Source: Escherichia coli (lineage in GTDB: Bacteria; Pseudomonadota; Gammaproteobacteria; Enterobacterales; Enterobacteriaceae). Taken from it: a DNA stretch of 64,000 bases. The notes beneath the pieces were generated by a model, which was given only the letters and a program-made list of their open reading frames with translations, was not told the DNA's origin and did not search any database. Positions 11,955 through 62,855 of this stretch are shown in pieces; position 1 is the stretch's first letter; each line of letters starts with the position of its first letter. Made by a program: the position numbers and the translations under genes. The stretch is from NCBI RefSeq assembly GCF_001677475.2, contig NZ_CP015229.1. One strand, given 5' to 3'.

Positions 11955-11967
11955 ACCAGACGAGAAC

Positions 11968-14734: not shown

Positions 14735-16850
14735 TCTGGCGTTGCAGACGACCAATCTCTGGCAGTAATGCAATCAATAACCCAACTTGTTGTACGACCA
14801 GAGGTTCTTTGCTGTCTGCCCGTGGTTCAAGTTGCTGCATCCGCTGTTTCAGGCCAGCTAATGCCTGATTGACGCGTTCTTCATCAGCAGGTTGATGATG
14901 TAACGCGTCATCAACATAGCAAACTGCGTCATCAAGAAACGCCAGAATTTCAGGATTAGTTAACTGCTCCCGGTGAGCACCGAGGGCTGAGATATAGCTG
15001 GTAAACGTATGGTTAAGGCACAGCAACCGAAACGCGGCCTCACTAATTTGCGGGGTAACGTTCGGCTCGCTGGACATATTTGATACCACCGACGCCAGTT
15101 CAGCATCACGGTTGTGTGCATCGCGGCGGGCAATACGATACGCCAGACGGTTATCACGCCCCTGATGGTATTGCTCCAGTATGGCATCGAGATAGCGACA
15201 GTTGGCCTCGGTGGCGCGTTCGAGCATGCGCGGCAGATTGCGAAACTTCCAGTCAGGCCAGATGTAGCTCACCGCCGCCCACGCAATGGCACAACCAATC
15301 AGCGTATCGATTACGCGAGGTAACGCCACTTCAAAACCTTCACCCAGCAAGTTAAAACAAAGTAGCACCAAAAGTGTGATGAACATCGTTGCATGGGCAT
15401 ATTGCACGTTACGGAAGGCAAAAAAGAGCACGCCGGTAATAACCAGTAGCACCAGCTGCCCTTCCAGTGACGGCACAAACCACAGCACAGGAATGCCAAT
15501 GGCGATACCTACCAGCGTCCCAATAATCCTTAACTTCAGGCGGTGGCGAGTGGCGTTATAGTTTGGCTGGCAGACAAACAAACTTGTCAGCAAGATCCAA
15601 TACCCGTGATGCATTCCGGTTATCTGAATGATGGCGTAGCCGAAGCACAACACCAGCGACATTCTTACCGCATGACGGAAGAGGGCGGATTCCGGCGTGA
15701 AGTGACGGCTAAGACGCAGCCAGATATCACTCAATCCGTGCGGGCTGTCATCAGCGAGCTCATTTTCGTCATTATTATGGGGCAGTGCCTGGGCCTGTTC
15801 TGATTCAATTGTTGCCAGTTGGGCATCAATAGCGCGTAAATTGTTCAGCAAAAATCCCAGTGTTTTGAGTAAATCGGCAGGCGCGCCGTTATCGCGCATC
15901 CGCTCCAGCGCAGCATCAATATGCGTAAAAGCGCGCTCAAAATGCGGATCATGTTGATAAGGCTGGCGCAGCAAAATACAGCGTGACAGTTGCTGGCACG
16001 CCTGGCCCTGCATCGACATCAGCCGCTGAAAACGGAACAGCACGTCGCTGTGGCGAAAATGTTCACGCAATGTTTGATACTGAATATGAGAAGAGCTGGC
16101 ACGCTCGTGAATATCCTGCGCGACGAAGTAATAATGCAGCGTGCGACGCGTTCCCCGTTGACCACGATCGCCACGTAAGCGGGTCAGCAGCGAGAGTTTC
16201 GTCTGATTCAATGTCGCCATCAGCTGACCGTTGGCGAGAGCCAAATCGTACAGCGGTGCCTGGCTTTCATCTTCAATATCAGGATCAAACATGCGCGACT
16301 TGAGCTCAAGATAACGCGCCAGTTGTTCATAGCAACGCGCCAGGTTGTCCTGCAGCGGGCGGACCGGGAACAGCAGATGACCAATAAGTGTCAGGACGTT
16401 GTACCAGACGGCACCGGCCAGCAGATACATCGGCTGCTGATACCAGTGCTCATACAGTGATGTTCCCAACATAGTGTAAATGGCGATCAGCAATGCACCG
16501 AAGGCAATTGTTGCATAGCGTTGACCCAGACCGCCGAGCAAAATGAAGCCGCTGGTAGAGAGCGTTAAGCCAATCGCAAATAGCCAGGGCCAGGGAAACA
16601 GCAATTCTACTGAGGCCGAGGCGATAAAAAAGCAGAACAGCGTAATGATGAGGTTACGCAAACGTCCCGCCAGTCGGTCATCGAGATCGGTCAGCGCCGC
16701 TGCCACCATCCCCAGCGTTAGCGGAATCGTCAGTTTTACATCACCCAGCCACCACGGAAACGCTGTGGTTCCACAAAGCGCAATAAAAATACGCGCGTAA
16801 TACAGCCAGGCGCTGTTCCAGGTATAGCGTTTGAGCAAAGGACTTAGCAT
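14697..16850 (-). CDS. yccS: inner membrane protein YccS
   Basis: The ORF extends to 16859. The start is chosen at MLSPLLKRYTWNS (717 aa). The start is ambiguous by 3 codons. Confidence 0.88.
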   Translation of the reverse strand: MLSPLLKRYTWNSAWLYYARIFIALCGTTAFPWWLGDVKLTIPLTLGMVAAALTDLDDRLAGRLRNLIITLFCFFIASASVELLFPWPWLFAIGLTLSTSGFILLGGLGQRYATIAFGALLIAIYTMLGTSLYEHWYQQPMYLLAGAVWYNVLTLIGHLLFPVRPLQDNLARCYEQLARYLELKSRMFDPDIEDESQAPLYDLALANGQLMATLNQTKLSLLTRLRGDRGQRGTRRTLHYYFVAQDIHERASSSHIQYQTLREHFRHSDVLFRFQRLMSMQGQACQQLSRCILLRQPYQHDPHFERAFTHIDAALERMRDNGAPADLLKTLGFLLNNLRAIDAQLATIESEQAQALPHNNDENELADDSPHGLSDIWLRLSRHFTPESALFRHAVRMSLVLCFGYAIIQITGMHHGYWILLTSLFVCQPNYNATRHRLKLRIIGTLVGIAIGIPVLWFVPSLEGQLVLLVITGVLFFAFRNVQYAHATMFITLLVLLCFNLLGEGFEVALPRVIDTLIGCAIAWAAVSYIWPDWKFRNLPRMLERATEANCRYLDAILEQYHQGRDNRLAYRIARRDAHNRDAELASVVSNMSSEPNVTPQISEAAFRLLCLNHTFTSYISALGAHREQLTNPEILAFLDDAVCYVDDALHHQPADEERVNQALAGLKQRMQQLEPRADSKEPLVVQQVGLLIALLPEIGRLQRQITQVPQETPVSA

Positions 16851-45058: not shown

Positions 45059-45206
45059 TAACAGTTCCCATCTGTAGGGGAGGGGCGGGTCAAATCTCTG
45101 CAACCCTGGCTGCTCAGTACCGCCGCCTGACCCTTCTTCACATCGCCGCAGGTTCGAAAACTTTTTTTTGGAAATGTGAACAAACGATTGATAGGTAAGG
45201 CCGATT

Positions 45207-45689
45207 ATGTCAGGACCTCCGAAAACCCCGCCACGCCTGCATTTGATACGAGGCAACCCCTCAAAGCGCCCCGTTAAAGACCACAAAAAAACCGCTAAAA
45301 AGGATGAAAAAGGTCTTCCTAAAATTCCGCAGCATTTAGGGGCTCAGGGGAAGTACTGGTTCAGGCGAATGGCGGAAGAGCTGAATGCGGAAGGGATCAT
45401 TTCTCAGCTTGATGCGCGTGCACTCGAGTTGCTGGTGGAAGCCTACACCGAATATCGGCATCACTGCGAAACACTCGATGTTGAGGGGTATACCTACCGC
45501 ACGGAAACGCAGAGCGGTGATGTACTGATTAAGGCGCACCCCGCGGCGGCAATGAAAGCGGATGCCTGGAAGCGGATCCGGGCAATGCTTGCAGAGTTTG
45601 GTATGTCACCGGCAAGCCGGGCTAAAGTAAATATCGCCGGACCGGATGATGTTGATCCGCTGGCGGAGCTTTTAAAAGCGAGAGACTGA
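45207..45689 (+). CDS. terS: terminase small subunit (P27-type)
   Basis: 160 aa, upstream of and overlapping the terL start. It is homologous in its C-terminal half to the satellite TerS. Confidence 0.8.
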   Translation: MSGPPKTPPRLHLIRGNPSKRPVKDHKKTAKKDEKGLPKIPQHLGAQGKYWFRRMAEELNAEGIISQLDARALELLVEAYTEYRHHCETLDVEGYTYRTETQSGDVLIKAHPAAAMKADAWKRIRAMLAEFGMSPASRAKVNIAGPDDVDPLAELLKARD

Positions 45690-46716
45690 TGGCAAAAGTG
45701 GCTGACGGGATCCGCTACGCCGAACGTGTTGTTGCAGGAGAAATTGTTGCTGGCGAATTTGTCCGCCTGGCCTGCCAGCGTTTTCTTGATGATCTGAAGT
45801 ACGGCGAAGAGCGGGGGATTTATTTCAGTGAACCCCGTGCGCAGCACATCCTGAATTTCTACAAATTTGTGCCTCATGTAAAAGGGGCGCTGGCAGGCCA
45901 GCCCATTGAGTTGATGGACTGGCATGTATTTATTCTCATTAATATTTTTGGTTTTGTCATTCCGCTGGTCAATGAAGAGACCGGGGAAGTTGTCATGCGC
46001 AGCGATGGCAGTGGACGTCCGGTGATGGTGCGCCGGTTCCGGACGGCGTACAACGAAGTCGCTCGTAAAAACGCAAAATCAACTCTGTCATCGGGTATCG
46101 GCCTGTATATGACGGGGGCAGATGGTGAAGGCGGAGCTGAGGTGTATTCAGCCGCAACCACGCGTGACCAGGCCAGAATCGTGTTTGAAGACGCCAAAAA
46201 TATGGTCAGAAAAGCCCGGTCGACACTCGGGCGGTTGTTTGATTTCAACAAGCTGGCGATTTACCAGGAGCAGAGCGCATCAAAATTTGAACCGCTTTCT
46301 TCGGATGCAAACAACCTAGACGGTCTGAACATCCACTGCGCCATTATTGATGAGCTGCATGCACATAAAACCCGCGACGTGTGGGACGTTCTGGAAACGG
46401 CAACCGGTGCCCGTCTGCAGTCCCTGTTATTTGGTATCACCACGGCGGGCTTTAACAAGGAAGGGATTTGTTACGAGCAACGCGATTACGCCATCAAGGT
46501 ATTGCGAGGCTATAACAGCGACGTGGAGGGCGCGGTAAAAGACGACTCCTACTTTGCGATTATTTACACGCTCGATGAGGGAGATGATCCGTTTGATGAA
46601 ACGGTCTGGCAGAAAGCGAATCCGGGCCTGGGCATCTGTAAACGCTGGGATGATCTGCGTCGTCTGGCGAAAAAAGCGAAGGAGCAGGTCTCGGCGCGGG
46701 TGAATTTTTTCACGAA
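45689..46716 (+). pseudogene. terL: prophage terminase large subunit, 5' (ATPase) fragment, interrupted by satellite
   Basis: The fragment aligns with the satellite TerL up to ...RVNFFTK. The frame then reads 55 unrelated codons of island DNA. Confidence 0.88.
46710..46716. repeat. satellite attL core TCACGAA
   Basis: The same 7-mer occurs at 62119-62125, with 12/14 identity when extended (AATTTTTTCACGAA vs AATATTCTCACGAA). Confidence 0.75.
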
Positions 46717-46845
46717 GAAAGTAACATCACGCCGTAACAACAGTGCAGTCTGTCCTGATTTTTTTAGTAACCAAATGAAAGAAAAAGATTTTTTCTTGTT
46801 CGTCGTTTTTGTTTTTTCTGGATGGTTCTGGCTGTTTTCATCATT

Positions 46846-46868
46846 TGTGTATTGCACTGTGTATTGCA
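46846..46868 (+). repeat. tandem TGTGTATTGCA x2 (putative integrase arm-type sites, left end)
   Basis: Copies lie at 46846-46856 and 46858-46868. A similar pair, GTGTATTGC x2, lies at 62023-62043 with the same 12-nt register. Confidence 0.6.
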
Positions 46869-46887
46869 AAAACGGGTTATAAATCAC

Positions 46888-48111
46888 ATGGCGCTAAACA
46901 AACTGAGCGATAAAAAACTTCGTTCCCTGCTTGGACGCAGGAGTGAGAGACAGGAAACCATCGCTGATGGTAACGGGCTTTCGGTACGGGTCAGTAAATA
47001 CGGATGTGTTAGTTTTGTTTTCTTTTACAGACTGGCGGGAAGGGGAACCGCGCCCATCTGGCTGACACTTGGAAAATATCCTGATCTGAGTCTCAAATCA
47101 GCGAGAGAGATGCGCGATCAGTGTCGAACCTGGCTTGCGGAGGGCAGAGATCCACGGATTCAGATAAAAATTGAACGGGAAGCCACCTTGCAACCTGTTA
47201 CCGTTCGTGAGGCACTTGAATACTGGCTTGATAATTATGCAATGGATAAGCGTAGGGGAGCAGAACATATCAGGCAGTGCTTTGGTAAACATATTTATCC
47301 GGTGATTGGTCATGTACCACTTAGTGATTGCTCTATATCTATGTGGATTAAGTGTTTTGACAAAATAAAAAAAGTAGCACCTGTACAGGCCGGAGCTTTG
47401 TTGCGTATATCAAAACAGGCGCTTAAATTTTGTAGGGTAAGAAAATACGCGATTAGTCATGAAATTGATGATCTTGAGGTCTGTGATGTGGGAAAAAAGT
47501 CTGCGCGAAGAAGCAGGGTTTTAACAGATGATGAAATCAGAGATTTATGGCGAAGTATTAATACTGATTATGACAATCACGAATTATCATATGAAAACCG
47601 AATTATTTTACGTTTCCTGGTAGTTTTTGGTTGCCGACTGTCAGAAGTATTACTGTCGTCCTGGGGAGAGTGGGATTTTGATAAGAAATTATGGCGCGTT
47701 CCCGCTGAACATAGCAAAAATGGCAGGGAAATAATCAGACCGATTCCTGATGGCATGTTTAACTGGTTAGTTACGTTAAAAAAAATAACAGGTAACAAAG
47801 AAAATGTGATTGGGTTTGATATGCGTCAGTGTACGGCAAGCGTAACTATCGGTAAGACATGGAAAAGGATGAAACACTCGGAGAAATGGACGGCGCATGA
47901 TATGCGAAGAGTGTTTGCCACAAAACTAAGTGATCATGGTTTTGAACATAATGTGGTTGAACAGTTGCTTGGGCACACATTAGGCGGTGTTGCCGGGGTT
48001 TATAACAGAAGCCAGTATATGGACAGAAAAAAAGAAGCTATGAACTGGTGGTACGACTATCTGAATAAGCAAATTAGTGGTGACGGTAATGATTCAAATA
48101 GTTACGCGTGA
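46888..48111 (+). CDS. int: P4-type tyrosine integrase of the satellite
   Basis: 407 aa from MALNKLSDKKLRSLLG. The C-terminal catalytic region reads GCRLSEVL...HDMRRVFATKL...LGHTLGGVAGVYNR. Confidence 0.88.
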   Translation: MALNKLSDKKLRSLLGRRSERQETIADGNGLSVRVSKYGCVSFVFFYRLAGRGTAPIWLTLGKYPDLSLKSAREMRDQCRTWLAEGRDPRIQIKIEREATLQPVTVREALEYWLDNYAMDKRRGAEHIRQCFGKHIYPVIGHVPLSDCSISMWIKCFDKIKKVAPVQAGALLRISKQALKFCRVRKYAISHEIDDLEVCDVGKKSARRSRVLTDDEIRDLWRSINTDYDNHELSYENRIILRFLVVFGCRLSEVLLSSWGEWDFDKKLWRVPAEHSKNGREIIRPIPDGMFNWLVTLKKITGNKENVIGFDMRQCTASVTIGKTWKRMKHSEKWTAHDMRRVFATKLSDHGFEHNVVEQLLGHTLGGVAGVYNRSQYMDRKKEAMNWWYDYLNKQISGDGNDSNSYA

Positions 48112-48310
48112 AGAACTTGAAAATGATAAAACAATCGACAGGATGATTAAGGAAGATGAATGTGCATGGTTAACCGCTCTTGGCAGGAGACACAGATCGT
48201 TACTTGAAAAGGAAGGAAAATTTCCACGAAAAATATGTATTGGTCCACAAACAAAAGTCTGGCGCTTATCTGAGGTGCTGGAATGGGTAAAAGGTGAATG
48301 GAAACCCTGA
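48089..48310 (+). CDS. alpA: AlpA-family HTH regulator/excisionase 1
   Basis: RMIKEDECAWLTALGRRHRSLLEKEGKFPRKICIGPQTKVWRLSEVLEWV fits the AlpA pattern. The start is uncertain (48077, 48089 or 48143). Confidence 0.7.
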   Translation: MIQIVTREELENDKTIDRMIKEDECAWLTALGRRHRSLLEKEGKFPRKICIGPQTKVWRLSEVLEWVKGEWKP

Positions 48311-48373
48311 GCTAAATTAAATGAGATATAATCAACCCGTCTTTTGGCGGGTTTTTTTATAGGTGATATTTTT

Positions 48374-48652
48374 ATGCAAAAATTTATTTATCCTACACCC
48401 GAAGAACGCATTCAGATTCTGAAAGATCATGGCGAACCGTATGATCGCCGTATACGCGAACATGAGTGTGCCAATCGTACCGGGCTTTCAAGAAGCAGAC
48501 GTTGGGTACTTGAACAGGAGGGAGCATTTCCTGCTCGTGCTCATTTAGGGAAAGTGTCTGTTTCCTGGTTGCTCTCTGATGTGCTCTGGTGGGTTATGCA
48601 TCCGCCAGGAGTAAAGGAAGTAAACAGCCCATACAAAAACGCCAATAAGTAA
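48374..48652 (+). CDS. AlpA-family HTH regulator 2
   Basis: 92 aa with IREHECANRTGLSRSRRWVLEQEGAFPARAHLGKVSVSWLLSDVLWWV. Confidence 0.7.
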   Translation: MQKFIYPTPEERIQILKDHGEPYDRRIREHECANRTGLSRSRRWVLEQEGAFPARAHLGKVSVSWLLSDVLWWVMHPPGVKEVNSPYKNANK

Positions 48653-48662
48653 TTACCGACAA

Positions 48663-48690
48663 CCCCGCACCACGCAATGCGGGGTTTTTT
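48663..48690 (+). terminator. rho-independent terminator
   Basis: CCCCGCA-CCACGCAA-TGCGGGG-T6. Confidence 0.8.
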
Positions 48691-48709
48691 GTATGTGAGG
48701 TAGAAAGTG

Positions 48710-49303
48710 ATGAATAAAAATATTGCCGTGACGGGCAAGGGTGACGCACGTCATGTGAAAAAATTCTGTGATATTCGTGATCTGGTCGTTCTGCGCTTTG
48801 ATAGTGTGAACGTTCGCGTGGTGTATCTGAACGGCGATCCGTGGTTTGTTGGCGCTGATGTGTGTGCGGCGCTGGAAATTAGCAACGTTACCGATGCTGT
48901 TTCAGTTCTGGATAACGATGAGGTAATGACCCTAGCTTTAACCGAGGGTCATTCAGGTAAGCGTGGTGGTGCCAGAAGTTGGAATGTTGTATCAGAATCA
49001 GGTTTTTACAAGTTGATCGCCAGAAGTCGCAAAGCTGTTAATCCTGGCACGTTCGCCCATCGTTTCAGTAATTGGGTATTCAGAAATGTGATACCGGGTA
49101 TCAGAAAAACGGGGGCTTATGGTATCCCGTGGGGCGCATTACAGGATTTTTCCCGCCGCAAAGAGCAATATCAGGTAAGTGCCAGCGAGAAGGGGAGGGA
49201 GCTACAGGCATGTAAGCGCAAAAAGCGTGAGCTAGAGGAAGAAGAAAAAAGGCTGATACGTGAATATCAGCCTGAGTTTTACTTTGGTGAGCGTATTCAG
49301 TAA
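48710..49303 (+). CDS. BRO-N domain (antirepressor-like) protein
   Basis: 197 aa with VRVVYLNGDPWFVGADVCAALEISN...SESGFYKLIARSRKA...FSNWVFRNVIPGIRKTGAY. Confidence 0.75.
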   Translation: MNKNIAVTGKGDARHVKKFCDIRDLVVLRFDSVNVRVVYLNGDPWFVGADVCAALEISNVTDAVSVLDNDEVMTLALTEGHSGKRGGARSWNVVSESGFYKLIARSRKAVNPGTFAHRFSNWVFRNVIPGIRKTGAYGIPWGALQDFSRRKEQYQVSASEKGRELQACKRKKRELEEEEKRLIREYQPEFYFGERIQ

Positions 49304-49461
49304 CCACACGCGGTGCTGATTATACGGTACATCGTGTTAACCGAGAAGCTACCCACCAGCAAGGCAAAATCTTCTGCTAAAAAATGACATATGGCCAGTC
49401 GTCTGGAAAGCATGAAATTTTACAAAAATGGAAAATGAAGATTTTTATTGTGCTGGTGGGT

Positions 49462-49492
49462 AAAAACAAAAAGCGCCCCGTTGCCGGAGCGC
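49462..49492 (-). terminator. minus-strand rho-independent terminator
   Basis: The minus strand reads GCGCTCCG-GCAA-CGGGGCGC followed by TTTTTGTTTTT. Confidence 0.75.
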
Positions 49493-49588
49493 CCTTGCGA
49501 ACAATTAACCTACTGCGCAAAAAAATGAATCTGTGCAGGGGGATTATATCAACCGTGTGACGAAGCGCCACAATTGCCGGATAACAGG

Positions 49589-49617
49589 CAAAGAAAAGGC
49601 CACCCGCTACGGTGGCC
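49589..49617 (-). terminator. minus-strand terminator/attenuator
   Basis: The minus strand reads GGCCACC-GTAGCG-GGTGGCC followed by TTTTCTTTG. Confidence 0.6.
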
Positions 49618-55608: not shown

Positions 55609-56754
55609 ATGAAGAAATTAATCGAACTCCGCCAGCAAAAAACCGCCCTGAAAAACCAGATGCGATCCCTGCTGGAAAAAGCCGACAGTGAAAACCGCAG
55701 CCTGAACGATGACGAAGGCAAACAGTTTGATGAACTGCGTGCAAAAGCCGATTCCCTCGACACAGAAATCTCCCGTCTTGAAGCTGTTGCGGATGAAGAA
55801 CGTAACCAGCCAGGTGTTTGCGTCGAAGAGAAAATTACCAAAGACGAACTGCGCTCTTACATTCTGACCGGGGAAACCCGCAACCTGTCCGGCAGTGTTC
55901 CGGCTGATGGTGGTTATACGGTTATCCCGGAACTGAACAGAGAAATTATGCGTCAGCTTTCTGATGAATCGGTGATGCGTAAAATCTGTACTGTTAAAAC
56001 CATTCACAGCAATGAATTTAAGCAACTGGTTTCTGCCGGGGGCGCGGTCGTTGAACACGGTGAAGAAGGCACTACACGTAACCAGACGGCAACCCCAAAA
56101 CTGAATGAAGTCAGTATCCGCCTGTATCCGATCTACGCTTACCCGAAAACCACTCAGGAAATTATCGATTTTTCCGAAGTCGATATTATGGGCTGGTTAT
56201 CTTCTGAAATTGGCGACACTTTCGTTGATACCGAAGAAACGGATCTGGTTTCTGGTGATGGCGAGAAAAAAGCTAAAGGTTTCCTGGCTTTTCCGCGCAC
56301 TGAGGATAACGACAAAACCCGTCCTTTCGGTACGCTCCAGACGAAAAAAGTTACTGGCAGTCTTAGCGCCGACATGCTGATTGACCTGAAATTTACGCTG
56401 CGCAATAAGTACCGCAAAAAAGCTGTATGGGTGATGAACTCAAATACAGCCGCCTCCGCACAAAAACTGAAAAATGCCACTGGTGATTACATCTGGCGCG
56501 ATCGTTTACAGGCTGGTGATCCTGATTCTCTGCTGGGGCTTCCGGTTGAATATCTGGAATTTATGCCGGACGGTGTGATTGCAGTAGGTGACTTTAAGCG
56601 CGGTTATTTCATCGTTGACCATGAAACCGGTACGCGTACCCGTCCGGATTTCAGCGAACCTGGATTCATTAACATCTATACCCAGAAATATCTGGGCGGT
56701 GGTGTGGTGGATTCGAACGCCATCAAGATTCTGGAAATTCAGGCTGGCAAGTAA
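55609..56754 (+). CDS. HK97-family major capsid protein (with N-terminal delta/scaffold domain)
   Basis: 381 aa with an N-terminal coiled coil and then a capsid fold. The gene order capsid-protease-portal supports the call. Confidence 0.85.
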   Translation: MKKLIELRQQKTALKNQMRSLLEKADSENRSLNDDEGKQFDELRAKADSLDTEISRLEAVADEERNQPGVCVEEKITKDELRSYILTGETRNLSGSVPADGGYTVIPELNREIMRQLSDESVMRKICTVKTIHSNEFKQLVSAGGAVVEHGEEGTTRNQTATPKLNEVSIRLYPIYAYPKTTQEIIDFSEVDIMGWLSSEIGDTFVDTEETDLVSGDGEKKAKGFLAFPRTEDNDKTRPFGTLQTKKVTGSLSADMLIDLKFTLRNKYRKKAVWVMNSNTAASAQKLKNATGDYIWRDRLQAGDPDSLLGLPVEYLEFMPDGVIAVGDFKRGYFIVDHETGTRTRPDFSEPGFINIYTQKYLGGGVVDSNAIKILEIQAGK

Positions 56755-56760
56755 TGAGCA

Positions 56761-56785
56761 AAGGGGGCTTCGGCCTCCTTTTTCA
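56761..56785 (+). terminator. hairpin plus T-run after capsid gene (attenuator)
   Basis: AAGGGGGC-TTCG-GCCTCCTT followed by TTT. Confidence 0.55.
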
Positions 56786-56803
56786 GCTTTATGGAGTACA
56801 CCG

Positions 56804-57364
56804 ATGAAAAACACCGATTTTGAAATCCGTACATCTGAACTGACCGCCAGCGATAAAAAACTGGTGGGTTATGCCGTTCGCTGGAACAGCCTTTCAGAAA
56901 TTATTTGGGACGAATTCCGCGAACAGTTCACGCCGGGGGCTTTTGCTGACTATCTGGCGGCGGGTAATGATGTGCGCTGCCTGTATGAGCATGACTATAC
57001 CCGACTGCTGGGGCGCACCAAATCCGGAACACTGGTACTGACTGAGGACAACACCGGGCTACGTTTTGAACTGACACCGCCTGATACCCAGCTTGGAAAA
57101 GATGTGCTTACGCTGGTGGAGCGTGGCGACATTACAGGAATGAGCTTTGGCTTTCGCGCATTATGCGAAGAGTGGAATATCGCGCAAAAACCGTATCTGC
57201 GCACTGTTACCGCCGCAGAACTCCGTGAAATCACGATAACGTCGATGCCTGCTTATCCCGAATCTGGCGTGGAGATTGCCCACCGTTCGTTGTTTGCACA
57301 GCACCCTGAATTACGCCCGGCAGGAAATAATCGTCATCGCTGGGCTGAACTGGCGGGGTTGTGA
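56804..57364 (+). CDS. HK97-family prohead protease
   Basis: 186 aa from MKNTDFEIRTSELTASDKKLVGYAVRWNS...YEHD...GMSFGF. Confidence 0.85.
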   Translation: MKNTDFEIRTSELTASDKKLVGYAVRWNSLSEIIWDEFREQFTPGAFADYLAAGNDVRCLYEHDYTRLLGRTKSGTLVLTEDNTGLRFELTPPDTQLGKDVLTLVERGDITGMSFGFRALCEEWNIAQKPYLRTVTAAELREITITSMPAYPESGVEIAHRSLFAQHPELRPAGNNRHRWAELAGL

Positions 57365-57365
57365 T

Positions 57366-58580
57366 ATGTGGTGGCCTTTTAGTCGTAAAAAAAGCGATCT
57401 GCGTAACCTGTCCATTGATGATTTTCTGGCGCTGTCCGGCGTACCGAATACCGGATCCGGAGAATATGTTTCTGCCGGGACGGCTGAATCATTGCCTGCT
57501 GTGATGAACGCGGTTTCTGTCATCGCTGAGGCGGTGGCCACGATGCCGTGTTATCTGTATCTGGTACGCAATGATAAGGGCAGGGAGGCGCGGGAGTGGC
57601 TGGACAGTCATCCGGTCGATATTCTGCTGAATGAGCAGCCTAATTCGTGCCAGACACCTTACCAGTTTAAACGCACAATGATGCGTCACTGCCTGCTGAA
57701 CGGTAACGCCTATGCGGTTATTGAGTGGGGGCGGGACGGTCAGCCAAAATCACTTCATCCTTATGCGCCGGGGTGTGTTGTACCGGAACGCACTGGCGCG
57801 CACAAATACCGCTATACCATCACCGAACCCTATACAGGAACGGTGCGCACGTATTTACAGGAAGAAGTCCTGCATCTCCGCTATGCCTCGGATGATGGCT
57901 TTCTGGGACGTTCCCCCGTCACGATTTGCCGTGAGGCGCTGGGGCTTGGCCTTGCTCAACAGCGTCACGGAGCCAGCATTATGAAAGATGGCATGATGGC
58001 GGCAGGGATTATCACGTCAGGCGAATGGCTGGACGGTGTGAAAGGTAAACAGGCATTAGACGCCCTGGAACGCTACAAGGGGGCGAAAAATGCCGGAAAA
58101 ACGCCAATCCTTGAAGGGGGCATGGATTACAAGCAACTGGGGATGAGTAACCAGGATGCGGAATGGCTGGCCTCCCGTCGCTTCTCCATTGAAGACATCG
58201 CCCGGATGTTCAACGTGTCGCCGATTTTTCTTCAGGAATACAGCAACAGCACCTACAGCAATTTCAGTGAGGCAAGCCGCGCGTTTCTGACCATGACAAT
58301 GCGCCCATGGCTGGCGAACTTCGAACAGCAAATTAAGGCCGCTTTGCTGGTGGCTTCTCCCGTACCTGGTACCCGTTATCTGGTTGAGTTTGATTCAGCC
58401 GATTTACTGCGCGCTACTCCAACCGAGCGTTACGCCACGTATGAGAAAGGGATTAAGAACGGGATCATGAATCCGAACGAAGCCCGCGAACGTGAGGGGA
58501 TGCCGCCGCGTGAAGGTGGCGACGAATTCAGCCAGGCATGGAAGCAGACGGTGGAAATTAAAGGTGAAAAAGATGAGTGA
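57366..58580 (+). CDS. HK97-family portal protein
   Basis: 404 aa from MWWPFSRKKS. It is homologous to the prophage portal at 63049. Confidence 0.85.
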   Translation: MWWPFSRKKSDLRNLSIDDFLALSGVPNTGSGEYVSAGTAESLPAVMNAVSVIAEAVATMPCYLYLVRNDKGREAREWLDSHPVDILLNEQPNSCQTPYQFKRTMMRHCLLNGNAYAVIEWGRDGQPKSLHPYAPGCVVPERTGAHKYRYTITEPYTGTVRTYLQEEVLHLRYASDDGFLGRSPVTICREALGLGLAQQRHGASIMKDGMMAAGIITSGEWLDGVKGKQALDALERYKGAKNAGKTPILEGGMDYKQLGMSNQDAEWLASRRFSIEDIARMFNVSPIFLQEYSNSTYSNFSEASRAFLTMTMRPWLANFEQQIKAALLVASPVPGTRYLVEFDSADLLRATPTERYATYEKGIKNGIMNPNEAREREGMPPREGGDEFSQAWKQTVEIKGEKDE

Positions 58581-58872
58581 AGAAAAAATTACACCTGATG
58601 AAGTCAGGGCACATCTTCGCCTTGATGACTTTTCCGGAGAGGGCGAACTTCTGAAAATGTATACCGATGCGGCGCTGGAAGCCTGCCAGAAGCATATCGG
58701 GAAACGTTTTGAAGACGGCCTGGAATTTACCCCGGCAATACGTGTTGGTTGCCTGATGTACATTGCTTTCCTGTACGAGAACAGGGAAGCGGTTTCACCT
58801 GTGGAGCAGTCTGAACTGCCTATGGCTATTTCTGCGCTCTGGTCGGTTTATCGTGATGTGGGGGTGTACTGA
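58573..58872 (+). CDS. gp6-like head-tail connector
   Basis: 99 aa from MSEEKITPDEVRAHLRLDD. Confidence 0.7.
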   Translation: MSEEKITPDEVRAHLRLDDFSGEGELLKMYTDAALEACQKHIGKRFEDGLEFTPAIRVGCLMYIAFLYENREAVSPVEQSELPMAISALWSVYRDVGVY

Positions 58873-59312
58873 TGCCGTGGCAACCATTAAGGCGATGCAC
58901 TGAGCCGGGCTGTAATAAGCGCGTGAAGTCCGGCAAGTGTGAAGAGCACAGGCGGGCTGCATGGCGTGCAGAGGATGCCAGACGGGGACACCGCCGCGCG
59001 CGCGGGTATTCCCGACAGTGGGACAAATACCGCGCCCTGTACCTGAGCAAAAACCCGTTATGCGTGCGTTGTCTGGCTAAGGGGATTTATACGCCAGCTC
59101 TTGTGGTGGATCACATCATTCCCATCAATGGCGGCGGTGATGTTCTCTTCTGGCCTGAGTGGAACCACCAGGCATTGTGCCAGACGTGCCACAACCGTAA
59201 GACGACACGGGAAGACCCAGCCACGAAAGCGAACCGTAAGGCGGGCATGTATCGCGAGCAGGAAGAACGGGCGGCACACCGTAACGACTGGATGTATGGC
59301 GATGATGACTGA
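58872..59312 (+). CDS. HNH endonuclease (packaging-associated)
   Basis: 146 aa with CVRC...DHIIPINGGG...CQTCHNRKT. Confidence 0.85.
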   Translation: MPWQPLRRCTEPGCNKRVKSGKCEEHRRAAWRAEDARRGHRRARGYSRQWDKYRALYLSKNPLCVRCLAKGIYTPALVVDHIIPINGGGDVLFWPEWNHQALCQTCHNRKTTREDPATKANRKAGMYREQEERAAHRNDWMYGDDD

Positions 59313-59600
59313 ACATGAGCAAAACAGGCTGATACGTGGACTGATAAGGCAACGTGACTTATGGAAGACACAGGAGACAGGGCACAAAGCCAACAGGACA
59401 GGGCGCACAGAACGCACCACAGCGAAGCGATTAACCGACCGTGACCGCGAGGTCATGGAATGTTTTCGCAATCGCTGGTGAGGCTGTCAGAGGGGGTGGG
59501 GGAGGTTTTCAGGACGAAACCGTCCCTGCCGGACACCGACCGCCTCCTCAAATTTTTGTGCACGGTAATTTTTTTGAAAATAATTGGGCGAAAAAAGAAC

Positions 59601-59957
59601 ATGGCAAGACCACCAAAAGCCCCCGCTTACCTGGATGAAATCGCGGTCAGGCAGTGGAAGGAAAAATCGCGCCAGCTTTCCGTGCGGGAAGACCTTACCC
59701 CCGCCGACTGGAGCAATCTGGAACTGTATTGTGTTAACTACTCCATATACCGCAAAGCCGTCGAAGACCTTGCGACGCGCGGGTTCAGCATTGTTAACAG
59801 TCAGGGCAGCGAGAGCAGAAACCCCGCCCTGAGCGCAAAGGCTGACGCGGAAAGAATAATGATCAAAATGGCTTCTTTGCTGGGTTTTGACCCGGTAAGC
59901 CGCCGCAGAAATCCACCGGAAACAGAGGAAGAGGACGAGCTTGACCGCCTGGCATGA
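59601..59957 (+). CDS. terS: terminase small subunit (P27-type)
   Basis: 118 aa from MARPPKAPAYLDEIAVRQW. Confidence 0.8.
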   Translation: MARPPKAPAYLDEIAVRQWKEKSRQLSVREDLTPADWSNLELYCVNYSIYRKAVEDLATRGFSIVNSQGSESRNPALSAKADAERIMIKMASLLGFDPVSRRRNPPETEEEDELDRLA

Positions 59958-61602
59958 GTACGCAGAAGGCGTAAAAAACGGCAAAATTACGGCCTGTAAA
60001 CGACTGAAACAGGCCGTTAAACGGTATTTTTCTGACCTTGAAAACCCCCTTTACACGTTCGAGCCGGAGGTCGTGGAGCGGTTTATTGCCTTTTCCAGGG
60101 TGTGTCCGCACGTAAAAGGCGCAATGCGCGGTAGCCCCATTGAGCTGGAGCCGTGGCAGCAGTTCGCCTTTGCGTGCATCCTGGGCTTTAAGGTTAAGGC
60201 CACCGGACGGCGCAAATACACCAGCGCATTCATTGAAGTACCGCGTAAAAATGCCAAATCCACGGTCGCCGCTATCCTGGCTAACTGGTTTCTGGTTATG
60301 GAAAACGGGCAGCAGGATATTTACACCGCCGCCGTGAGTCGTGATCAGGCGCGGATCGTGTTTGATGATGCGCGTCAGATGTGCCTTTTATCCCGACCGT
60401 TACGAAAGCGGGTAAATATTCAGGCACACAAGGTGATACACCCGAAAACCAACAGCCTGTTAAAGCCACTGGCAGCAAAAGCGGCAACCATTGAAGGTAC
60501 AAACCCGAGTCTTGCTATTGTGGATGAATATCACCTGCACCCTGACAACGGGGTTTATTCCGCGCTTGAACTGGGAATGGGGGCGCGTCCGGAGGGGTTA
60601 TTATTTGCCATCACCACATCGGGGAGCAACGTTGTTTCAGCCTGTAAACAACACTACGACTATTGCTGCCAGATACTGGATGGTGAAGAGGTGAACGAAT
60701 CCATGTTCGTGCTGATTTACGAGCTGGATGATGAAAGCGAGGTTGACGATCCGGCGATGTGGATAAAGGCGAATCCCAATATCGATGTTTCCGTCGATCG
60801 TGAAAAACTGGCCTCAACCATCCAGAAAGCGCGGGGTATTCCGTCGCAGTGGGTGGAGATGCTCACCAAGCGATTCAATATCTGGTGTCAGGGGGCTACG
60901 CCGTGGATGGGTAACGGTGCATGGGCGGAGTGCGCCGGAACGTTCGCGGAGGCGGATTTATACGGGCAGGAGTGCTACGCGGGGCTGGACTTATCATCAA
61001 CCAGCGATATTTCCAGCGTGTGCTATGCCTTTCCGGTCGGTAAAAAGATTATGCTGGTTTCCCGTCACTATCTGCCGGAATTTCAGCTACAGAACCCCGC
61101 CAATAAAAACCGCGCCATCTATCGCCAGTGGGTAAAGGCGGGCTGGATACGCACAACACCGGGTGACTGCATTGATTATGACCGTATCCGTGATGACATC
61201 ATGGCGGATGCAGAGAATTTCAATATCAGGCTGGTGGGCTTCGATACATGGAACGCCACGCACCTGAGGACGCAGCTACAGGGCGCAGGATTTGAGGTGG
61301 AGCCGTTCCCGCAAACATACCTTCGTTTCAGTCCGGCGGCGAAATCGTTCGAAGTTTTTGTTAACCGGAAGGTGATTGTGCATCGTGGTGATCCGGTGCT
61401 GGCCTGGTCAATGAGTAATGTTGTGATGCAGAGTGACGCGAACGCCAATATCAAGCCGAACAAGAAAAAATCATCCAACAAGATAGACCCGAGCGTTGCG
61501 GCGCTGATGGCGTTTGGCACATTCCAGGCAGAGCATGAGGAATTTGCATTCGATATGAGCGACAGCCACAAAGAGCGGCTTGCGGCGTTTGATGGTGTGT
61601 AA
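59941..61602 (+). CDS. terL: terminase large subunit (intact, satellite copy)
   Basis: 553 aa, colinear with both fragments of the prophage terL. Confidence 0.88.
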   Translation: MTAWHEYAEGVKNGKITACKRLKQAVKRYFSDLENPLYTFEPEVVERFIAFSRVCPHVKGAMRGSPIELEPWQQFAFACILGFKVKATGRRKYTSAFIEVPRKNAKSTVAAILANWFLVMENGQQDIYTAAVSRDQARIVFDDARQMCLLSRPLRKRVNIQAHKVIHPKTNSLLKPLAAKAATIEGTNPSLAIVDEYHLHPDNGVYSALELGMGARPEGLLFAITTSGSNVVSACKQHYDYCCQILDGEEVNESMFVLIYELDDESEVDDPAMWIKANPNIDVSVDREKLASTIQKARGIPSQWVEMLTKRFNIWCQGATPWMGNGAWAECAGTFAEADLYGQECYAGLDLSSTSDISSVCYAFPVGKKIMLVSRHYLPEFQLQNPANKNRAIYRQWVKAGWIRTTPGDCIDYDRIRDDIMADAENFNIRLVGFDTWNATHLRTQLQGAGFEVEPFPQTYLRFSPAAKSFEVFVNRKVIVHRGDPVLAWSMSNVVMQSDANANIKPNKKKSSNKIDPSVAALMAFGTFQAEHEEFAFDMSDSHKERLAAFDGV

Positions 61603-61682
61603 CGGAATGGATGAGAGAGGACAATGCTCATTTAATGGAATAAATTTTCAGTATTACCGGCACCCACTTTCAGGGATGTTTT

Positions 61683-61838
61683 TGCGGGTTATTTGAGGGG
61701 TGTTTGCGGGTTATTTTGAATGTCTTGCGGGTTACATTCTGGCTGATATTTAAATACGTTGTTTTTTTAACGTATTGATATTAAAGAGTAAAAGATAATT
61801 AGCACGCGAAGATAACCCGCTAACCCGCATAACCCGCA
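61683..61838. repeat. TGCGGGTTA array: 3 direct (21-22 nt phasing) plus 3 inverted tandem copies around an AT-rich palindrome
   Basis: Direct copies lie at 61683, 61705 and 61726. Inverted TAACCCGC copies lie at 61813, 61821 and 61830. The palindrome AATACGTT-N8-AACGTATT lies at 61752-61776. Confidence 0.85.
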
Positions 61839-62022
61839 CTGTTTTGTATATATATACGAAAAATTGCATTCAGGGGGGATCGAAATTTCTACTGCCTCTT
61901 ATCTCTTTGAGTGCTCACCTCGTCAGATTGTTACACACAAGAAATAAAAAATGCTTCGCGATGGTAGGTCGAATCACTGTATCAAAAAACGGTGTGTATC
62001 AGCATTAAAACAATACAGATAC

Positions 62023-62043
62023 GTGTATTGCGCTGTGTATTGC
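62023..62043 (+). repeat. tandem GTGTATTGC x2 (putative integrase arm sites, right end)
   Basis: This pair matches the left-end pair at 46846-46868. Confidence 0.6.
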
Positions 62044-62118
62044 TCGATGATTTATAAAGACTGTTTTTTCATGTTAAACGATTGATATACAGACGATTTT
62101 AAAAAGCTTGAAATATTC

Positions 62119-62125
62119 TCACGAA
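62119..62125. repeat. satellite attR core TCACGAA
   Basis: See the attL core. Confidence 0.75.
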
Positions 62126-62855
62126 ACACATGAATGTGTGGGTCACTGCCGAATCGGCCTGGATGGACATGATTAAGTGGGAGAAGTGCGAATACATCGC
62201 TCCACAGCATGAGCTGAAAACGTATCCCATGTGGGTCGGCGTCGACCTTGCACATAAGATTGATATCTGTGCGGCGGCAAAACTCTGGCGAACGGATAAC
62301 GGGCATGTTCATGCCGATTTTAAATTCTGGCTTCCGGAAGGGCGACTGGAACGGTGTTCACGGCAGCAGGCAGAACTTTACCGGAAGTGGGCGGAGATGG
62401 ATAAGCTCATCCTGACGGATGGTGATGTTATCGATCATGCTCAGATAAAAAGTGACTTACTGGAATGGATTGGTGGTGAAAACCTCAGGGAACTGGGATT
62501 TGACCCGTGGAGCGCGATGCAGTTCAGCCTGGCACTGGCTGAAGAAGGGATACCGCTGGTGGAGGTTCCGCAGACGGTCCGCAATCTGTCAGAGGCCATG
62601 AAGGAAACGGAATCACTGGTCTATGCCGGACGTTTCCACCACAGCAATCACCCGGTCATGAACTGGATGATGTCTAACGTTACGGTGAAACCGGACAAAA
62701 ACGACAATATCTTCCCGAATAAATCCACGCCGGAAGCCAAAATCGACGGCCCTGTTGCGATGTTTACAGCAATGAGCCGGATGCTGGTCAATGGCGGTGA
62801 ACCGGAGCCGGATCTGTCTGAACACCTGATCAGTGTTGGTATCCGCTCGCTTTAA
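62126..62855 (+). pseudogene. terL: prophage terminase large subunit, 3' (nuclease) fragment
   Basis: HMNVWVTAESAWMDMIKWEKC... aligns with satellite TerL FNIWCQGATPWMGNGAWAEC. The fragment is in frame with the 5' fragment when joined at the core. Confidence 0.88.

What the first reader, a model, noticed from the sequence alone, without database searches (positions are those of the whole stretch)
61683..61838. Symmetric TGCGGGTTA repeat array at the satellite right end
**Seen in sequence.**
- Three direct copies of TGCGGGTTA are spaced 22 and 21 nt apart, about two helical turns (61683, 61705, 61726).
- An AT-rich spacer follows, with the perfect palindrome AATACGTT-N8-AACGTATT.
- Then come three back-to-back inverted copies TAACCCGC (61813, 61821, 61830).
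- The array lies in 520 bp of ORF-free DNA between terL and attR. It is distinct from the rep iterons and from the GTGTATTGC arm-type repeats.

**Inference.** Six sites for one DNA-binding protein arranged to loop or wrap DNA. Candidates are a TerS recognition (cosB/pac-like) site, an excision-directionality (AlpA) array in the att arm, or a second origin or partition-like site.
Basis: seen in the sequence. Interest (0 to 1): 0.6.

Follow-up and report, generated by a model that had tools for sequence, protein, structure and literature searches.

The report
Orphan replication-origin unit in a phage satellite
The repeat array is real and is a spare replication-origin module of the type used by one family of phage-satellite initiator proteins, but this satellite encodes a different initiator, so the module is probably a leftover or works only with an outside partner.

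Summary
There are three TGCGGGTTA repeats 22 and 21 nt apart, a 72% A+T spacer, and three abutting inverted copies. No other exact copy occurs in the 64 kb window.

The island is a capsid-forming PICI inserted in a prophage terL gene. The same 9-mer is the iteron found directly downstream of DUF927-type Rep genes in related islands. In EcCIEDL933 a homologue of this array lies next to that iteron cluster, in the usual PICI ori position. In 042-like islands it sits at the right end, as here.

Two islands have a DUF927 Rep whose last ~110 residues differ. Both repeat clusters there use GTTGTCCCA instead, while the architecture and the TA-tract flank are kept. The array is therefore a Rep-iteron origin unit, arranged like a PICI/SaPI ori and, when detached, like P4 crr.

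This island's Rep is a different type (AAA_25) with its own AAAGTGGGG iterons at 53337-53530. No DUF927 domain is present in the window, so the array is non-cognate here, most likely left by a Rep-module swap.

The TerS/cosB, AlpA att-arm and partition readings fail their tests. I rate it a new variant of a known kind, of moderate interest.

The parts
61683..61734 (+). Three spaced direct iterons, TGCGGGTTA at 61683, 61705 and 61726. The extended unit is about TTTGCGGGTTATTT, with a 21-22 nt period.
   Evidence: The same 9-mer and spacing occur in 32 distinct related arrays. Diversity at repeat positions is 0.013, against 0.15 between the repeats.
61735..61812 (.). A+T-rich spacer (72% A+T), the candidate DNA-unwinding region. 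It holds the window-specific palindrome at 61753-61776.
   Evidence: the least stable 30-bp window of the island is here, -28.8 kcal/mol against a mean of -41.1 (sd 3.7). An A+T-rich spacer is present in all related arrays.
61768..61780 (-). IHF-consensus match TATCAATACGTTA (WATCAANNNNTTR) inside the spacer.
   Evidence: The ATTGATAT core is conserved in the 32 related arrays. By my reading of the sequences printed, the spacers of the GTTGTCCCA-type arrays also match the consensus (AATCAAACGGTTA, AATCAATGGATTA), though in the opposite orientation. Binding by IHF is inferred, not shown.
61799..61812 (+). Conserved box TTAGCACGCGAAGA directly before the abutting repeats. Its role is unknown.
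   Evidence: At least 90% column conservation across the 32 arrays, in both the right-end and the rep-adjacent contexts.
61813..61838 (-). Three abutting inverted iterons: TAACCCGC(T) at 61813, then TAACCCGCA at 61821 and 61830.
   Evidence: They are conserved in relatives. In the variant islands they are replaced by TGGGACAAC x3 at the same position.
61839..61866 (+). Conserved flank CTGTTTTG-(TA)5-CGAAAAATTG. It travels with the array in both genomic contexts and is a second low-stability tract.
   Evidence: it is retained at 93-100% in most rep-adjacent arrays and with the TA tract but a diverged tail in the EDL933 type, and the TA repeat varies from 5 to 8 units. It is kept next to the GTTGTCCCA-type arrays. 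It is among the ten least stable windows of the island.

Best explanation
**What it is.** The array is one complete iteron-type origin unit: a set of iterons, an A+T-rich spacer and an inverted set of iterons. It belongs to the replicon of DUF927-type PICI initiators, which are Rep helicases related to SaPI Rep and SCCmec Cch.

**Where it sits in cognate islands.** Those islands always have two such units.
- Unit 'A' lies directly 3' of rep.
- Unit 'B' lies either next to A (EcCIEDL933) or 7-10 kb away at the right end, beside a cos-like segment (E. coli 042). The window array is a B unit.

**Inferred mechanism.**
- The C-terminal origin-binding domain of Rep binds the six 9-mers.
- The three spaced sites lie on one helical face.
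- The spacer, probably bent by IHF, brings them to the three abutting inverted sites.
- The spacer and/or the adjoining TA tract melts for helicase loading.
- When B is detached from A it would act like the P4 cis replication region (crr), or as a Rep-titrating control locus.

**Status in this window.**
- The island's Rep module is of another type (AAA_25) with its own AAAGTGGGG iterons at 53337-53530.
- The array therefore has no cognate protein here.
- It is most likely a leftover of a Rep-module exchange in a 042-like ancestor.
- It would be dispensable for this island's own replication and active only if a DUF927 Rep is supplied in trans.

**Shown versus inferred.**
- Shown: the sequence anatomy, homology, co-occurrence and covariation.
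- Inferred: binding, melting, IHF involvement and present-day activity.
For: 1. **Same iteron as the DUF927 ori.**
   - In E. coli 042 the island is 93-98% identical to the window island outside the rep module.
   - There the same GCGGGTTA motif forms a cluster directly downstream of the DUF927 rep gene, as well as the right-end array.
2. **Exclusive association.** Among 62 viral-collection loci holding the doubled 9-mer, the rep-adjacent cluster always follows a DUF927-type Rep C-part (93-100% identity) wherever the flanking sequence reached the rep gene. It never follows another Rep type.
3. **Adjacency in the model island.** In EcCIEDL933 and 12 similar loci, a homologue of the window array (about 80% identity, including the spacer, the TTAGCACGC box and the TA tract) lies next to that cluster. 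This is the canonical PICI ori position (ori position per PMC6092414).
4. **Covariation.**
   - L175 and L201 encode DUF927 Reps that are about 90% and 66-92% identical (per 50-column window) to the 042 Rep over alignment columns 151-600.
   - They diverge in the last ~110 residues: 25/50, 17/50 and 4/20 identical to 042, against 47/50, 42/50 and 20/20 to each other.
   - In both islands, both clusters use GTTGTCCCA instead.
   - The architecture is kept: spaced direct repeats, an A+T spacer with an IHF consensus, three abutting inverted repeats, then GTTTTGTATATATATA.
5. **C-terminal domains set iteron specificity in this family.**
   - The P4-like Rep of L047 carries the P4 alpha origin-binding domain (PDB 1KA8, E 3e-24) and has TGTTCACC iterons.
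   - The DUF927 Rep matches a staphylococcal pathogenicity island protein (8TCH, E 4.5e-14), which I take to be a SaPI Rep, and the helicase 5DGK, which I know as SCCmec Cch.
6. **Always present with the cognate Rep.**
   - In a sample chosen by TerL, the right-end array is present in 16/16 DUF927/GCGGGTTA islands, against 8/26 islands with other Reps.
   - One contig that seemed to lack it was merely truncated.
7. **Architecture.** It matches the published PICI ori: two iteron sets flanking an A+T-rich region (PMC6092414). The spacer is the least stable duplex of the island.
8. **Non-cognate status here.**
   - The window Rep is AAA_25 type.
   - Its AAAGTGGGG iterons occur only at 53337-53530, and no DUF927 or C-terminal-domain homologue exists anywhere in the window.
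   - Identical or 96-97% identical Reps of the non-DUF927 types occur in islands without the array (L141 and L143 against L047; L174, L180 and L181 against the window).
Against: **Signs of continuing function in non-cognate islands.**
- The six repeats are as well conserved in islands with non-cognate Reps (7 distinct sequences, diversity 0.011 against 0.14 for the intervening bases) as in cognate ones.
- The array co-occurs with at least three other Rep types: AAA_25, P4-like and D5_N/Pox_D5.
- This is not what a long-abandoned relic should look like. Either the swaps are recent, or the array retains a function that does not need the island's own Rep.

**Confounded association.**
- The association with DUF927 is confounded with late-module lineage.
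- Inside the TerL >=97% clade it is 11/11 against 7/9 (p = 0.19).

**Competing context.** At the right end the array always abuts a cos-like segment, so a role coupled to packaging cannot be excluded.

**No direct data.**
- No binding or replication experiment exists.
- The covariation was seen in the rep-adjacent arrangement, not in a right-end copy.
Confidence: 0.75

Rival explanations
1. The array is a functional cis element in this island despite the foreign Rep. It might be an origin fired in trans by the DUF927 Rep of a co-resident satellite. Alternatively it might be a decoy that titrates a rival satellite's Rep, giving cross-replication or competition between satellites.
For: - The repeats are equally conserved in non-cognate islands.
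- The array is retained with AAA_25, P4-like and D5/Pox Reps in 8 of 26 sampled islands.
- It is also retained in non-capsid islands L003 and L046.
Against: - For the seven host genomes of non-cognate islands that I checked, the collection scan returned no second contig with a DUF927-linked cluster. This is weak evidence, because that collection holds only predicted viral regions.
- Near-identical Reps occur in islands without the array, so it is not required by them.
- The rest of the window island is 93-98% identical to a cognate island, so a recent swap is sufficient to explain the pattern.
Confidence: 0.15
2. The array is a packaging recognition site, cosB-like, bound by the island's P27-family TerS or a TerS partner beside a cos cleavage site.
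For: - In right-end copies the array abuts a segment that aligns with the HNH-terS intergenic (cos-type) regions of the island and of the surrounding prophage.
- Inverted repeat sets around an IHF-like site resemble the lambda cosB layout R3-I1-R2-R1 (my own knowledge; lambda cosB is described in PMC6739421).
Against: - Capsid-forming islands with 93-100% identical TerS and 99-100% identical TerL lack the array (L141, L143, L148, L119, L126).
- L141 has the cos-like segment plus Chi without the array.
- Two islands with the 75-76% TerS variant have it (L117, L159).
- Islands without a P27-type TerS have it.
- In the experimentally packaged EcCIEDL933 it lies next to rep, far from terS and from any cos-like segment.
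- EcCICFT073, whose cos1 and cos2 were mapped genetically, has no such array (PMC6092414, PMC6739421).
- The repeats covary with the Rep C-terminus.
Confidence: 0.04
3. The array is an operator or activator array, bound by AlpA or another regulator, that controls a promoter at the TA tract or sets excision directionality in the attR arm.
For: - The abutting repeats sit directly upstream of TGTATATATATA.
- In EDL933-type islands a gene (hypothetical protein, then ssb) starts about 30 nt further on.
- The array is in the arm opposite int, where lambda Xis sites lie (my own knowledge).
Against: - No sigma-70-like promoter was found in 61500-62200.
- The TA tract varies from 5 to 8 units, which would shift any -10 element.
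- No gene follows the array in the window.
- The array is 275-440 bp from the att core here and at variable or internal positions elsewhere. It is associated with at least five integrases and with AlpA proteins only 34-100% identical.
- Covariation is with Rep, not with Int or AlpA.
Confidence: 0.04
4. The array is a partition (centromere-like) site, or a binding array for a host protein.
For: Clustered short repeats around an IHF-like site also occur in plasmid centromeres (my own knowledge).
Against: - No ParA/ParB-like gene is annotated in the near-identical 042 island or among the other annotated related islands I fetched.
- The motif is absent from the plasmid and phage collections.
- It matches no host-factor consensus that I could recall.
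- It changes to GTTGTCCCA together with the Rep C-terminus, which a host factor would not require.
Confidence: 0.02

Closest known systems
PICI/SaPI replication origin (Ubeda et al. for SaPIs, from my own knowledge; Fillol-Salom et al. 2018, PMC6092414, for E. coli PICIs)
   Same: - Two sets of short iterons in opposite orientation flank an A+T-rich, presumably melting, region.
- The iterons are specific to one Rep type.
- The homologous unit in EcCIEDL933 sits in the canonical position directly 3' of rep.
   Different: - Here the unit is detached, 8.3 kb downstream of rep at the island's right end beside a cos-like segment.
- It is a second unit in addition to the rep-adjacent one.
- In this island it does not match the resident Rep.
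Satellite phage P4 bipartite origin, ori plus crr, bound by the alpha protein (my own knowledge: Flensburg and Calendar 1987; Ziegelin et al. 1993; the origin-binding domain is PDB 1KA8)
   Same: - There are two separated clusters of the same iteron in one small satellite replicon.
- They are recognised by the C-terminal origin-binding domain of a primase-helicase-type initiator.
- In 042-like islands the two clusters are 7-10 kb apart.
   Different: - The initiator family differs (DUF927, SaPI-Rep/Cch-like, rather than P4 alpha).
- The iteron sequence differs.
- Each cluster here is itself a complete inverted-set unit.
- A cis requirement for the second cluster has not been tested.
- In the window only the distal cluster remains.
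Auxiliary iteron clusters of iteron plasmids, such as P1 incA and F incC (my own knowledge)
   Same: Extra initiator-binding repeats lie outside the minimal origin and could titrate or handcuff Rep.
   Different: - Those loci are tandem direct repeats without an internal A+T spacer.
- Copy-number control has not been studied in PICIs.
Lambda cosB (R3-I1-R2-R1) and the PICI-specific cosB recognised by Rpp-TerS (PMC6739421)
   Same: Inverted protein-binding repeats surround an IHF-like site close to a cos-like sequence.
   Different: - Presence does not follow TerS or TerL.
- The array is absent from EcCICFT073, where the PICI cosB was defined.
- The repeats covary with Rep.

Membership tests
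PICI/SaPI-type iteron origin | Two sets of short iterons in opposite orientation flank an A+T-rich region. | tested here: met
   There are 3 direct and 3 inverted 9-mers around a 78-bp spacer of 72% A+T. That spacer holds the least stable duplex window of the island.
PICI/SaPI-type iteron origin | The origin lies immediately 3' of the rep gene. | tested here: not met
   In the window the array starts 8.3 kb after the rep stop (53336) and lies after terL. The homologous unit is rep-adjacent in EcCIEDL933 and 12 other loci.
PICI/SaPI-type iteron origin | The iteron sequence is specific to, and changes with, the initiator's DNA-binding domain. | tested here: met
   GCGGGTTA clusters follow only DUF927-type Reps. 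Two islands with a different Rep C-terminus have GTTGTCCCA in both clusters.
PICI/SaPI-type iteron origin | The cognate initiator is encoded by the same element. | tested here: not met
   The window Rep is AAA_25 type with AAAGTGGGG iterons. tblastn found no DUF927 or C-terminal-domain homologue in the 64 kb.
PICI/SaPI-type iteron origin | The unit supports Rep-dependent replication of a plasmid. | not testable with these tools
   This needs the ts-plasmid assay of PMC6092414, using DUF927 Rep and 61670-61870.
P4-like bipartite origin (ori + crr) | A second cluster of the same iteron lies at a distance in the same replicon. | tested here: inconclusive
   Met in the 042, L048, L065 and L233 type islands, which have both A and B. 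In the window only the distal cluster is present.
P4-like bipartite origin (ori + crr) | The second cluster is required in cis for replication. | not testable with these tools
   A deletion experiment is needed.
cosB / TerS recognition site | The site is present wherever the cognate TerS/TerL is used, and varies with TerS. | tested here: not met
   Six islands with the same TerS type lack it, and two with the variant TerS have it. Islands without a P27-type TerS also have it.
cosB / TerS recognition site | The site is adjacent to the cos cleavage region. | tested here: inconclusive
   A cos-like segment follows the array at 61866-61975. That segment occurs without the array (L141), and the array occurs without it (EDL933 type). 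The cleavage site has not been mapped.
att-arm recombination-directionality (AlpA/Xis) site array | The array holds a fixed position in an att arm and is associated with one integrase/RDF pair. | tested here: not met
   The array occurs with at least five integrase types and attachment sites: the prophage terL site, pepT/roxA-phoQ, cspD-clpS, rcnR-thiM and tRNA-Pro near yejM. It is internal in EDL933-type islands.
Plasmid-type partition centromere | Partner ParA/ParB-type genes are present in the element. | tested here: not met
   None is annotated in the near-identical 042 island or in the other annotated related islands I fetched.

The most novel reading that the evidence does not exclude
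Detached B units are working cis elements that link satellites to one another. An island carrying an orphan TGCGGGTTA origin could be replicated by the DUF927 Rep of a co-resident satellite. Alternatively it could soak up that Rep to suppress the rival. This would be a layer of origin sharing or competition among satellites of the same helper.

A related reading is that in cognate islands the B unit beside the cos-like segment couples Rep-driven replication to packaging through an A-B DNA loop, as in P4 ori-crr.
Probability: 0.15. Interest if true: 0.6.

Novelty: new variant of a known kind. Interest (0 to 1): 0.38.

Why it matters
- **A two-part origin in a model satellite.** The DUF927-type replicon of E. 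coli satellites appears always to have two iteron units. This includes the model capsid-forming island EcCIEDL933. The second unit can sit many kilobases away, next to a cos-like site. This gives a concrete, testable P4-like ori/crr arrangement for PICIs and defines the likely recognition sequence of that Rep family.
- **Modular evolution leaves foreign origins behind.** Rep modules are swapped while a foreign origin unit stays in place. This matters for anyone engineering these islands as delivery vehicles, or predicting which satellites can replicate together.
- **This particular island.** Here the practical message is modest. The array is probably not needed by the island's own replication, excision or packaging machinery.

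Tried and rejected
- **Species-representative genomes.** A scan for the doubled 9-mer returned 42 hits in unrelated phyla and none in Enterobacteria. About 17 would be expected by chance in 596 Gb, by my arithmetic.
- **Rfam.** A scan of 61500-62200 gave only a chance miRNA hit at E 0.53.
- **Promoter and terminator scan.** Nothing was found.
- **Phage and plasmid collections.** There was one 75-nt hit in a 2.2-kb record from an EDL933-derived strain and no plasmid hit.
- **Literature search for the motif.** Only primer sequences and other unrelated matches turned up.
- **Rpp hypothesis.**
  - I asked whether the array is the PICI cosB bound by Rpp-TerS.
  - EcCICFT073 has lambda-type cosN at L112 ~25560 and ~26300 and no array.
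  - The DUF1441 protein of the BH100 island has no detectable PDB relative, which would include RppC.
- **Lambda-type cosN reading.** I first read the downstream segment as a lambda-type cosN. The alignment shows instead that it resembles the HNH-terS intergenic regions.
- **Shared Rep N-terminal ~130 residues as binder.**
  - There is no Pfam or NCBIfam hit, and the single-sequence AlphaFold model was useless (pLDDT 42).
  - N-terminal types are shuffled independently of iteron type, and identical Reps occur with and without the array. I dropped this idea.
- **DUF927 Rep structure.** It could not be submitted for prediction because it is not a window sequence.
- **Second scan for the variant iteron.** Most hits were chance matches. 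Only L190 (the same contig as L175) and L201 were relevant.

Full report
**1. The observation**

- TGCGGGTTA lies on the + strand at 61683, 61705 and 61726, with spacing of 22 and 21 nt.
- The spacer 61735-61812 is 72% A+T. It carries the palindrome AATACGTT-N8-AACGTATT at 61753-61776.
- Three abutting inverted copies follow: TAACCCGCT at 61813, then TAACCCGCA at 61821 and 61830.
- No other exact copy exists in the 64 kb. About 0.5 would be expected by my arithmetic.
- The array lies in the 527 bp between the island's terL stop (61602) and the C-terminal fragment of an interrupted prophage terL (62130-62855).

**2. Context**

- Window ~46710-62120 is a capsid-forming PICI. Its genes run int, two alpA, bro, icd-like, DUF4222, rep, ssb, perC, capsid, protease, portal, connector, HNH, terS (Terminase_4) and terL.
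- It is inserted in, and co-oriented with, the terL of a lambdoid HNH/P27-type prophage.
- The att core is about TTC(T)CACGAA, at ~46708-46719 and ~62113-62124.
- This 'helper-embedded' configuration has been described (PMC10111431), and capsid-forming PICIs are known (bioRxiv 10.1101/2022.09.08.507074).
- A 93-98% identical island sits in the same site in E. coli 042. It differs only in the rep module and a short early segment.

**3. What the repeats are**

- *Same motif next to rep.*
  - In the 042 island the motif occurs twice.
  - One site is the right-end array. The other is a cluster directly after the DUF927-type rep gene, with two abutting direct copies, a 45-bp A+T stretch and four spaced inverted copies. 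I call this 'unit A'.
- *Adjacency in EcCIEDL933.*
  - In the experimentally studied capsid-forming island, unit A is immediately followed by a homologue of the window array, 'unit B'.
  - The homology covers the spacer, the box TTAGCACGC-AAGA and the TA tract.
  - Both units lie between rep and the next gene, where PICI origins lie (PMC6092414).
- *Exclusive association.*
  - I scanned a viral-contig collection for the doubled 9-mer and obtained 62 loci.
  - Unit A always follows a DUF927-type Rep C-part (93-100% identity) wherever the flanking sequence reached the rep gene, and never another Rep type.
  - Unit B is either contiguous with A (13 loci) or at the right end of the element.
- *Each Rep type has its own iterons directly after its gene.*
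  - AAA_25 has AAAGTGGGG (window 53337-53530).
  - D5_N/Pox_D5 has TGTCTACC (BH100, EcCICFT073).
  - The P4-alpha-like type has TGTTCACC.
- *The C-terminus is the origin-binding domain.*
  - The P4-like Rep ends in the P4 origin-binding domain (PDB 1KA8, E 3e-24).
  - The DUF927 Rep matches a staphylococcal pathogenicity island protein (8TCH), which I take to be a SaPI Rep, and the helicase 5DGK, which I know as SCCmec Cch.

**4. Covariation**

- Two islands, L175 and L201, have DUF927 Reps that stay similar to the 042 Rep over alignment columns 151-600 (L175 about 90% identical; L201 66-92% per 50-column window).
- Both Reps switch to a different sequence in the last ~110 residues. That C-terminal sequence is shared between the two.
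- In both islands the A-like and the B-like clusters use GTTGTCCCA.
- The B-like half keeps the whole layout:
  - two or three spaced direct copies;
  - an A+T spacer with an IHF-consensus match;
  - three abutting inverted copies;
  - then GTTTTGTATATATATA.
- A change of repeat sequence in both units, together with a change confined to the Rep C-terminus, is what one expects if that domain reads both units.
- This is the main reason I call the window array a Rep-iteron origin unit.

**5. Constraint**

- I aligned 32 distinct B units.
- The repeats, the IHF-like core, the TTAGCA(C/A)GCGAAGA box and the TA-tract flank are the conserved blocks. The TA run varies from 5 to 8 units.
- Among 22 right-end units, diversity is 0.013 at repeat positions. 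It is 0.15-0.16 between the repeats and in the spacer, and 0.30 in the left flank.

**6. Status in this window**

- The window's Rep shares only its first ~130 residues with the DUF927 proteins. The rest is an AAA_25 helicase type with its own iterons.
- No DUF927 or C-terminal-domain homologue is present anywhere in the 64 kb.
- In a sample of 80 islands chosen by TerL, and so not by the array, the right-end array occurs as follows.

| Rep type | Islands with the right-end array |
|---|---|
| DUF927 with GCGGGTTA iterons | 16/16 |
| AAA_25 | 4/12 |
| P4-like | 3/8 |
| D5/Pox | 1/5 |
| DUF927 with the GTTGTCCCA variant | 0/1 |

- Overall this is 16/16 against 8/26, p = 4.5e-6. After removing duplicates it is 11/11 against 7/23, p = 1.3e-4.
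- The contrast is confounded with late-module lineage. Within the TerL >=97% clade it is 11/11 against 7/9, p = 0.19. I therefore treat it as supporting evidence, not decisive.
- A DUF927 contig that seemed to lack B was truncated. The complete island in strain MB06102 has it.
- Reps identical or 96-97% identical to the non-DUF927 ones occur in islands without B, so those replicons do not need it.
- The simplest history is a rep-module exchange in a 042-like ancestor that left B behind.
- Against a long-dead relic: the repeats are as intact in non-cognate islands as in cognate ones. A trans-acting or competitive role therefore stays open.

**7. Alternatives**

- *TerS/cosB.*
  - The array abuts a segment (61866-61975) that aligns with the HNH-terS intergenic regions of the island and of the prophage. 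The idea therefore deserved a test.
  - Islands with the same TerS and TerL lack the array. L141 has the cos-like segment plus Chi without it.
  - Islands without a P27-type TerS have it.
  - EDL933 has it next to rep.
  - EcCICFT073, where the PICI cos sites and cosB were defined, has none (PMC6739421).
- *AlpA/att arm.* The array occurs with at least five integrases, at variable distance from att or inside the island.
- *Promoter.* None was detected, and no gene follows the array in the window.
- *Partition.* There are no par genes in the annotated related islands I fetched.

**8. Comparison and novelty**

- The unit has the published PICI/SaPI origin architecture (PMC6092414).
- What I did not find described is threefold:
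  - the DUF927 replicon has two units;
  - the second unit can be detached to the right end, as with P4 ori/crr;
  - detached units persist in islands with unrelated Reps.
- My literature searches were limited.
- I rate it a new variant of a known kind, with moderate interest.

Noticed in passing
window 61866-61975 (compare 59478-59590 and 45070-45175): Directly after the array lies a segment that aligns with the HNH-terS intergenic (cos-type) regions of the island itself and of the surrounding prophage. The shared features are a G-rich box, about 35 nt of spacing, then CCGCCTC-TCAAATTTTT. The window copy is the most diverged at the core (GTGCTCACCTCGTCAGATTGTT). It may be a second or decayed cos site. 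Three sequence variants of this segment are shuffled among islands with near-identical TerL.
   Followed up: partly
L003 ~17290, L046 ~16303, L048 ~16294, L141 ~11826, L233 ~15175; window ~61960-61968: In relatives the cos-like segment is followed within about 30 nt by a Chi site (GCTGGTGG). In the window the corresponding bases are degenerate (GATGGTAGG). A Chi site next to a cohesive end could protect linear or rolling-circle island DNA from RecBCD.
   Followed up: no
window 51927-53336 and 53337-53530: The island's own replicon is a 469-aa Rep with an AAA_25 helicase core, followed by six AAAGTGGGG iterons around an A+T stretch. Rep genes of this satellite family are mosaics. A shared N-terminal ~130 residues (42-75% identical, no family hit) is fused to four unrelated helicase/origin-binding parts, each with its own iteron.
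   Followed up: partly
window 45689-46720 and 62130-62855; att core ~46708-46719 and ~62113-62124: The capsid-forming island interrupts the terL of an HNH/P27-type lambdoid prophage and is co-oriented with it. This is the helper-embedded PICI configuration (PMC10111431). The island carries its own complete terS/terL/HNH set while splitting the helper's terL.
   Followed up: partly
window 46846-46866 and 62023-62043: GTGTATTGC-N3-GTGTATTGC is present near both island ends.
   Followed up: no
window 61847-61856: The TA dinucleotide run beside the abutting repeats varies from 5 to 8 units among otherwise near-identical relatives, which points to replication slippage.
   Followed up: partly
L047 7190-7420: The P4-alpha-like Rep of a related capsid-forming island has TGTTCACC iterons. 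From memory this is the type I iteron of satellite phage P4. Its C-terminus matches the P4 origin-binding domain structure 1KA8 (E 3e-24).
   Followed up: partly
L112 26650-26820 (EcCICFT073 right end); similar motifs in L047 ~15535-15560, L141 ~11500 and L175 ~11955-12065: Repeated (TAACCCGT)TGATATTTTCG-like elements lie in the right-end non-coding DNA of several islands, about 50 nt apart. Their function is unknown, and they are distinct from the TGCGGGTTA array.
   Followed up: no
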